43,876 nucleotides of DNA from a virus (Duplodnaviria; Heunggongvirae; Uroviricota; Caudoviricetes). Each line of letters starts with the position of its first letter. Positions within the stretch are counted from its first letter, which is position 1. The notes under the pieces were generated by a model, which was given only the letters and a program-made list of their open reading frames with translations, made no database searches and was not told the origin of the DNA. The position numbers and the translations under genes are program-made. Positions 39,247-39,348 of this stretch are shown piece by piece. The stretch lies in IMG/VR virus record IMGVR_UViG_3300020577_007897; one strand, 5' to 3'.

Positions 39247-39348
39247 TTGGGATACTTACAGCTAAACAAAAACCTAGTTGGTTCGAATCCAACAATCGCC
39301 ACCATTTATGGCGATTGAGCACATGGAGTGCACAAAGACGTATCCCGA
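39247..39348 (+). ncRNA. YrlA-like Y RNA (circularly permuted tRNA domain)
   Basis: GGGATAC-TTACAGC...T arm GTTGG-TTCGAAT-CCAAC, AATCGCC-ACCA-TTTAT-GGCGATT, D arm GCAC-ATGGA-GTGC...GTATCCC. Confidence 0.85.

What the first reader, a model, noticed from the sequence alone, without database searches (positions are those of the whole stretch)
39247..39348. YrlA-type permuted tRNA that still looks like two halves of a tandem tRNA array
The order is T arm, 3' acceptor strand + ACCA, TTTAT, 5' acceptor strand GGCGATT, then D arm. The CAGCA stem replaces the anticodon arm, which is the YrlA topology. The linker ACCA-TTTAT-G matches the ordinary spacers between tRNAs in this array (e.g. CCA-TTTTAT-G at 35437-35446). 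It looks like a snapshot of a Y RNA born from the 3' half of one tRNA and the 5' half of the next. RNase P cleavage at G39310 could give a two-piece RNA with a chargeable CCA.
Basis: partly seen in the sequence, partly recalled or inferred. Interest (0 to 1): 0.8.

Follow-up and report, generated by a model that had tools for sequence, protein, structure and literature searches.

The report
Phage inside-out tRNA mimic keeping CCA
This 100-base phage gene encodes a small RNA shaped like a tRNA with its halves swapped and no anticodon; it belongs to a widespread, uncatalogued phage RNA family found beside a Ro60-shaped protein, and its leftover CCA and spacer fit the published idea that such RNAs arose from tandem tRNA genes, though not from the tRNAs next to it here.

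Summary
The element is real. 39249-39346 folds into a 7-bp handle, T arm, 7-bp acceptor stem capped by ACCA-TTTAT, and a reduced D arm; all four helices are predicted from homologues, and three covary. The motif reads CAGCT, not CAGCA. It has YrlA's topology but fails YrlA membership: no GNCGAA motif, no RF02553 hit, and the nearby Ro60-fold protein (42677) is DUF2828-type. It belongs to a large phage CAGCAA-handle family, which this scan has reported before in other genomes.

It is not a newborn from this array: no local tRNA matches either half, and ordinary tandem junctions pair 7/7 in 1 of 214 cases. About 32 relatives share the same anticodon-less, CCA-loop subtype, one with the identical TTTAT linker. 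One-piece versions ending in CCA also exist, which points to duplication-permutation of one handle-bearing tRNA-like gene.

RNase P cleavage at G39310 is plausible (about 55%) and already shown for M. smegmatis YrlA. Specific charging is unlikely (about 15%): discriminators vary and none has G3-U70. The dimeric-tRNA origin idea is published. Verdict: new variant of a known kind, interest 0.5.

The parts
39249..39255 (+). 5' strand of the closing 'handle' helix (can extend to 39247)
   Evidence: pair probability 0.98-1.0; 7 of 7 pairs covary in homologues
39259..39264 (+). family motif, here the rare variant CAGCTA (74 of 76 relatives read CAGCAA); presumed protein-binding word
   Evidence: binding role inferred
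39265..39276 (+). short A-rich linker where other family members carry an anticodon-like hairpin; no anticodon here
39277..39293 (+). T arm (5 bp, loop TTCGAAT)
   Evidence: matches tRNA model positions 47-63; 3 of 5 pairs covary, 2 invariant
39294..39300 (+). 3' acceptor strand (positions 66-72)
39301..39304 (+). discriminator A73 and encoded CCA
   Evidence: sequence; NCCA in register in 8 of 53 family members from searches not aimed at CCA, about 1% expected by chance
39305..39309 (+). intervening spacer TTTAT, same as the last five bases before array tRNAs at 35446 and 36702, and same as in relative L109
39310..39316 (+). 5' acceptor strand (positions 1-7); G39310 is the predicted RNase P site
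   Evidence: 7 of 7 Watson-Crick pairs; cleavage inferred from PMC4201824
39317..39331 (+). positions 8-9 (GA, no U8) and reduced D arm (4 bp, 5-nt loop that keeps GG)
   Evidence: same reduction in relatives such as L471 and L455
39340..39346 (+). 3' strand of the handle helix
42677..43876 (+). DUF2828 + DUF7788/vWA gene, cut by the window end; presumed protein partner; 3.3 kb downstream on the same strand
   Evidence: Pfam; PHROG 850 RNA-binding protein; model of a 64-67% identical full-length homologue has Ro60 structures as its 13 best PDB matches
42170..42293 (+). second permuted member of the family in this genome, with a closed 5-nt acceptor loop and no CCA
40687..42653 (+). further handle cassettes at 40687-40740, 41480-41549, 42302-42421, about 42432 and 42585-42653, with other inserts

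Best explanation
The element is a small-RNA gene of a T4-like phage and a member of the CAGCAA-handle family that accompanies DUF2828 Ro60-fold proteins. It is of the anticodon-less, CCA-loop subtype. Shown by sequence comparison: the fold, the family, the subtype, and the existence of one-piece circular permutants ending in CCA. Inferred: it is transcribed with the tRNA cluster and released at the handle; the handle plus CAGCWA docks on the phage DUF2828 ring (about 70%); host RNase P cuts at G39310 and 3' trimming removes TTTAT (about 55%), giving a two-piece RNA held by the handle and acceptor helices, with a tRNA elbow and a free, mostly uncharged CCA end. It would then work as YrlA does: a tether or decoy that presents a tRNA top half to host RNA-handling proteins (PNPase, tRNA end-acting enzymes or toxins). 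The CCA and spacer are most likely inherited from an old duplication-permutation of a single handle-bearing tRNA-like gene, kept in many lineages and lost in others.
For: Fold and covariation. With sequence-only anchors, 66% of 74 handle junctions pair at 6 or more of 7, against 5% in shuffles and 3.7% of 214 ordinary tRNA junctions. 76 distinct permuted members; about 32 of the short-linker CCA subtype, G1-C72 in 26 of 33 rows. One-piece versions of the same subtype: L084, L194, L314, L439. Ro60 fold of the neighbouring protein family. Rfam YrlA model hits relative L012 full length at 35.9 bits. Precedents: RNase P cut and CCA addition on M. smegmatis YrlA (PMC4201824); PNPase binding by a phage Ro60 with its RNAs (PMC12135203); permutation by duplication (PMC3978253).
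Against: No transcript, binding or processing data. CCA is dispensable in close relatives: loops ACCC..., ACCTT, ACTAT and TTCT occur on the same stems (10 of 18 keep NCCA, 14 keep NCC, and many of these are near-identical kin). This copy has a variant motif that competes with the T arm, no U8 and a 5-nt D loop. The DUF2828 gene was found on 3 of 5 contigs tested; the two without it are the one-piece carriers, both fragments about 10% complete. No 1.5-copy intermediate was found, so the direction of permutation is not shown.
Confidence: 0.6

Rival explanations
1. Same family and partner, but the acceptor loop stays closed as in most YrlA RNAs; CCA and spacer are a neutral relic that is slowly being lost, and only the elbow matters.
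For: 45 of 53 members from CCA-independent searches have no NCCA, mostly with 4-6-nt loops; repeated CCA loss among near-identical relatives; Salmonella YrlA is not cut (PMC4201824).
Against: NCCA stays in exact register on many unrelated stems while spacers vary from 1 to 17 nt; members that have lost the whole D arm still keep it (L436); one-piece forms end in CCA.
Confidence: 0.22
2. The processed RNA is aminoacylated by a specific synthetase and enters translation or another aminoacyl-transfer reaction, like a two-piece tmRNA.
For: Perfect 12-bp acceptor/T stack, A73 and CCA; the same one-piece and two-piece gene forms as tmRNA.
Against: No anticodon and no long variable arm; discriminator A 19, G 10, U 4; third pair G-C 17, C-G 9, A-U 5; G3-U70 never; no tag reading frame inside the 98 bases.
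Confidence: 0.08
3. A decaying, non-functional copy of a family member.
For: Only 1 of 76 members has CAGCTA; the change favours a misfold; G8 and a short D loop.
Against: All four helices are perfectly paired, the T loop is canonical, the model score is high, and non-U8 and short D loops are traits of the whole subtype.
Confidence: 0.07
4. One reading: a recent fusion of the 3' half of one array tRNA with the 5' half of the next.
For: Spacer matches local leaders and trailers; ordinary spacers in these phages are 82% A+T and mostly 1-10 nt, and 8 of 214 end in TTTAT.
Against: No parent in the window; 7 of 7 pairing between unrelated neighbours occurs in 0.3-0.5% of cases; handle, linker and T arm are closer to relatives in other phages (up to 23 of 28 in the 3' half) than to local tRNAs (at most 21 of 28, mostly invariant bases).
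Confidence: 0.03

Closest known systems
YrlA, especially M. smegmatis YrlA (Rfam RF02553; Chen et al. 2014, PMC4201824; Wang et al. 2018, bioRxiv 10.1101/312249)
   Same: T arm, then acceptor stem-loop, then D arm, closed by a terminal stem in place of the anticodon arm; 7-bp acceptor stem; encoded within 4 kb of a Ro60-fold gene on the same strand; several partner RNAs per locus.
   Different: CAGCWA instead of GNCGAAN0-1G; partner is DUF2828-type, not classical TROVE; full CCA is gene-encoded (M. smegmatis gains CA after cleavage); D arm reduced and U8 absent; no RF02553 score for this element.
Thermus phage phiLo Ro60 with Yrl1 and Yrl2 (PMC12135203)
   Same: Phage-encoded Ro60 ring with small RNAs upstream; its structures are the best fold matches of the DUF2828 model.
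   Different: Its RNAs carry a CGAA motif and the text has no CAGCA or DUF2828; about 14% protein identity.
Two-piece tmRNA (permuted ssrA)
   Same: 3' acceptor strand, CCA, intervening segment, then 5' acceptor strand; no anticodon; one-piece and permuted genes both exist.
   Different: No G3-U70, no tag reading frame, no ARAGORN or Rfam tmRNA call; far shorter.
Circularly permuted tRNA genes of algae and Thermofilum pendens (PMC3978253)
   Same: Swapped halves joined by a short intervening sequence at the acceptor end; CCA encoded in T. pendens.
   Different: Those are re-ligated at a bulge-helix-bulge junction to give decoding tRNAs; this element has no anticodon to restore.

Membership tests
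YrlA (RF02553) | Order T arm, acceptor stem-loop, D arm inside a terminal stem | tested here: met
YrlA (RF02553) | GNCGAAN0-1G motif near the 5' end | tested here: not met
   absent from 39247-39276; a GNCGAA word in the 5' part of only 1 of 76 relatives
YrlA (RF02553) | Score at or above the Rfam gathering cut-off (69 bits) | tested here: not met
   no YrlA hit up to E = 10; relative L012 scores 35.9 bits
YrlA (RF02553) | Ro60 gene within 4 kb on the same strand | tested here: inconclusive
   a DUF2828/vWA gene lies 3.3 kb away; no TROVE Pfam hit and no sequence match to solved Ro60, but Ro60 fold by prediction on a homologue
YrlA (RF02553) | tRNA tertiary positions (U8-A14, G18-G19, Levitt pair) | tested here: inconclusive
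   GG in the D loop, A14 and the T loop are present; U8 is G, D loop is 5 nt
YrlA (RF02553) | Bound by Ro60 and modified by TruB/DusA in vivo | not testable with these tools
   needs experiment
CAGCAA-handle RNAs of DUF2828 phages (uncatalogued) | Terminal helix followed by CAGCWA, covarying across members | tested here: met
   64.1 bits with a model that excluded the element; covariation
CAGCAA-handle RNAs of DUF2828 phages (uncatalogued) | DUF2828 gene in the same genome, several cassettes nearby | tested here: met
Two-piece tmRNA | G3-U70 alanine determinant and tag reading frame | tested here: not met
   C3-G70 here, G3-U70 in none of the subtype; no tmRNA call
Permuted decoding tRNA | Anticodon arm recoverable after re-ligation | tested here: not met
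   12-nt A-rich linker with no hairpin at 39265-39276

The most novel reading that the evidence does not exclude
Phages deploy a Ro60-docked, anticodon-less tRNA top half with a free CCA end, encoded either in one piece or as a permuted gene opened by RNase P, as a decoy for host defences that attack the tRNA 3' end, while sibling cassettes with closed acceptor loops and anticodon hairpins decoy anticodon nucleases. The CCA-loop members would also be the surviving intermediates predicted by the dimeric-tRNA model for the origin of Y RNAs.
Probability: 0.12. Interest if true: 0.8.

Novelty: new variant of a known kind. Interest (0 to 1): 0.5.

Why it matters
Y RNAs of the YrlA type were proposed to come from dimeric tRNA transcripts, but in that model the acceptor stem derives from the spacer and no intermediates were in hand. 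This family supplies candidates: permuted members with a true 7-bp acceptor stem, encoded CCA and an ordinary spacer; close relatives in which the loop has shrunk and closed; and one-piece permutants ending in CCA. That makes the origin question testable by phylogeny and the processing question testable with one 98-base RNA. If the RNA is opened in vivo, phages carry a CCA-ended tRNA mimic on a Ro60-like ring, a plausible counter-defence. The single copy flagged is not special within the family.

Tried and rejected
Exact-pattern search for close relatives in viral contigs: none. blastn against cultured phages: only T-arm matches to ordinary tRNAs. No whole genome is held for the window, so tRNAs outside it could not be checked as parents. 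Rfam gave no family for the element at any threshold. Search for a 1.5-copy duplication intermediate found none. Promoter and terminator scans gave no dedicated signal next to the element. The ORFs listed over it (39150-39356, 39278-39550, 38969-39448 minus) were rejected as its explanation: it lies between the stop of an HNH gene (39244) and an ATG at 39365 with a ribosome-binding site. The pair counts were set aside as circular, because the descriptor required pairing; replace them. The apparent exclusion between NCCA and an anticodon arm (0 of 22 against 23 of 54) depends on my hairpin rule: some CCA members have 2-3-bp anticodon-like hairpins, and relatives are not independent, so the p-values are inflated. 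Burroughs and Aravind 2016, Sim and Wolin 2018 and Sim et al. 2020 could not be retrieved, so a prior description of this RNA family there cannot be excluded. No RNA ligase or CCA-adding enzyme was identified among the window ORFs scanned.

Full report
Observation. The sequence at 39247-39348 is as described, with one slip. From 5' to 3': GGGATAC (39249), TTA, CAGCTA (39259), a 12-base A-rich linker, a T arm (39277-39293), AATCGCC (39294), ACCA (39301), TTTAT (39305), GGCGATT (39310), GA, a 4-bp D arm with loop ATGGA (39319-39331), an 8-base linker and GTATCCC (39340). The motif is CAGCT, not CAGCA. The stretch folds far better than shuffles (z about -5, 0 of 200). Handle, acceptor and D helices have pair probabilities of 0.95 or more; the T arm competes with a helix made possible by the CAGCT variant (-31.4 against -28.8 kcal/mol). 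It lies between an HNH gene ending at 39244 and an ATG at 39365. ARAGORN and Rfam do not call it; Rfam sees only its T arm.

Context. The window is from a T4-like phage: family B polymerase, UvsX, helicase, primase, ribonucleotide reductase, and an array of more than 30 tRNAs from 29247 to 41637. At 42677 begins a DUF2828 + DUF7788/vWA gene. An AlphaFold model of a full-length homologue (pLDDT 73.8) has Ro60 structures as its 13 best PDB matches, E 2e-8 to 5e-5, TM 0.36-0.56; there is no sequence match to them. Six more cassettes with the same kind of handle lie between 40687 and 42653, one of them (42170-42293) also permuted but with a closed 5-base loop.

The family. Loci fetched by the protein and by DNA patterns gave 76 distinct permuted elements, 74 with CAGCAA. 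RNAalifold on a sequence-only alignment of 21 of them, without the window copy, returned handle, T, acceptor and D helices. The model finds the window copy at 64.1 bits. On that alignment 91% of cells pair, against 35-43% for slid partners; all 7 handle pairs and 6 of 7 acceptor pairs change on both sides, while the three D pairs vary on one side only. Because these sequences were first picked by pairing, I repeated the test with sequence anchors alone: 66% of 74 junctions pair at 6 or more of 7, against 5% when partners are shuffled.

The CCA subtype. NCCA sits in exact register after the acceptor strand in 8 of 53 members from searches not aimed at CCA, where loop composition predicts about 1% (members are related, so the p-value is inflated). 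It goes with a short linker without anticodon, loss of U8 and a short D arm, which is the window copy's make-up. A targeted search gave about 32 distinct members of this subtype (33 rows less one ordinary bacterial tRNA). Spacers are mostly AT-rich and short, some with their own hairpin; L109 has the same CCA-TTTAT linker on a different stem. Among near-identical relatives the loop has changed from ACCA-plus-spacer to ACCC..., ACCTT, ACTAT or TTCT, so encoded CCA is often kept but not always; several of these keep ACC, which a CCA-adding enzyme could complete.

One-piece permutants. They are present, and four (L084, L194, L314, L439) are unpermuted versions of this very subtype: 5' acceptor strand, reduced D arm, handle as a hairpin, CAGCAA, short linker, T arm, acceptor strand, CCA. 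The permuted gene, once opened at the acceptor loop, would be their two-piece equivalent. This parallels one-piece and two-piece tmRNA, for which duplication followed by loss of the outer halves is the accepted model (PMC3978253).

Was it born from this array? No. The best local match to the 3' half is 21 of 28 bases, mostly the invariant T loop and CCA, and at most 4 of 7 in the acceptor strand; relatives in other phages reach 23 of 28. The eight adjacent junctions of the array cross-pair at 1 to 6 of 7, and 2 of 702 ordered pairs reach 7; in other phages 1 of 214 ordinary junctions does. A perfect 7-bp stem is expected if both halves come from copies of one gene. The spacer resemblance is real, since TTTAT precedes the tRNAs at 35446 and 36702, but such spacers are generic: 82% A+T, with 8 of 214 ending in TTTAT. 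It may reflect origin, selection for processing by the same enzymes, or both. tRNAs outside the window could not be checked, and no 1.5-copy intermediate was found, so the direction of permutation is inferred.

Mechanism. Inferred steps, with my odds: expressed family RNA 0.9; binds the DUF2828 ring through handle and CAGCWA 0.7; opened by RNase P at G39310 and trimmed to CCA 0.55; charged by a specific synthetase 0.15 or less. For cleavage, the element has what bacterial RNase P is known to favour (my own knowledge): a 7+5-bp acceptor/T stack, G at +1, U at -1 and RCCA. M. smegmatis YrlA, which has a 7-bp stem, is cut in vivo and in vitro and gains CA (PMC4201824). Against charging: no anticodon, no long variable arm, discriminators A 19, G 10, U 4, and no G3-U70 in the subtype. 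What the subtype conserves is the top half of a tRNA (T arm, acceptor stem with G1-C72 in 26 of 33, CCA) and usually the GG of the D loop. The best guess is a tether or decoy for host proteins that read the elbow and acceptor end. A phage Ro60 with its RNAs binds and dampens host PNPase (PMC12135203), which is the nearest tested function.

Comparison. It works like YrlA but is not filed as YrlA: the GNCGAAN0-1G motif is absent, RF02553 does not score it (a relative reaches 35.9 of 69 bits), and the partner is of the DUF2828 branch. [quoted passage not shown] I found no description of the CAGCAA-handle family in Rfam or in the papers searched, but three key reviews were not available. This scan has noted the family, and CCA-loop members, in several other genomes; those notes are leads, not support.

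Verdict. A real, typical member of a recurring CCA-loop subtype of an uncatalogued Y-like RNA family; new variant of a known kind; interest 0.5. What this work adds is the rejection of a local birth, the spread of the subtype, the graded loss of CCA among close relatives and the one-piece permutants.

Noticed in passing
window 38758-38845 and 39978-40060: Two tRNA-Ser-like genes (anticodons TGA and GCT) missed by ARAGORN; the second ends in TCA rather than CCA and has a T loop that reads TTCGGAT.
   Followed up: partly
window 29247-29320, 32776-32854, 33480-33550, 37735-37805, 32035-32120: Further tRNA or tRNA-like genes not called by ARAGORN: a Gln(TTG)-type gene at 29247 (Rfam calls it), an Arg(ACG)-like one at 32776, a TAT/TTA-loop one at 37735 with an atypical T loop, and two odd ones with weak D arms.
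   Followed up: partly
window 31457-31555: tRNA-Asn has no encoded CCA; its acceptor stem is extended by about 10 further base pairs from the flanks, like a long precursor helix.
   Followed up: no
window 41562-41637: tRNA with anticodon CTA (amber suppressor type) and an atypical T loop; may indicate stop-codon read-through or recoding in this phage.
   Followed up: no
window 42302-42421: Handle cassette enclosing an unpermuted D arm, anticodon arm and T arm with no acceptor stem; Rfam scores the core as tRNA at 49 bits.
   Followed up: partly
window 41480-41549: Handle cassette that encloses an isolated anticodon-like hairpin (GTA in the loop).
   Followed up: no
L003, L016, L020, L022, L026, L048, L065 and others: Many permuted members with closed acceptor loops keep an anticodon-like hairpin 5' of the T arm (GAA, TAT, TCT, GTA, GGA, GTT and others; 23 of 54), unlike described YrlA; candidates for anticodon-nuclease decoys.
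   Followed up: partly
L154, L175, L190: Handle, short linker, T arm and NCCA followed by a long insert with no adjacent acceptor partner; possibly a larger permuted form.
   Followed up: no
window 38900-39244 and 40129-40653: HNH and GIY-YIG homing-endonuclease-type genes flank this part of the tRNA array.
   Followed up: partly
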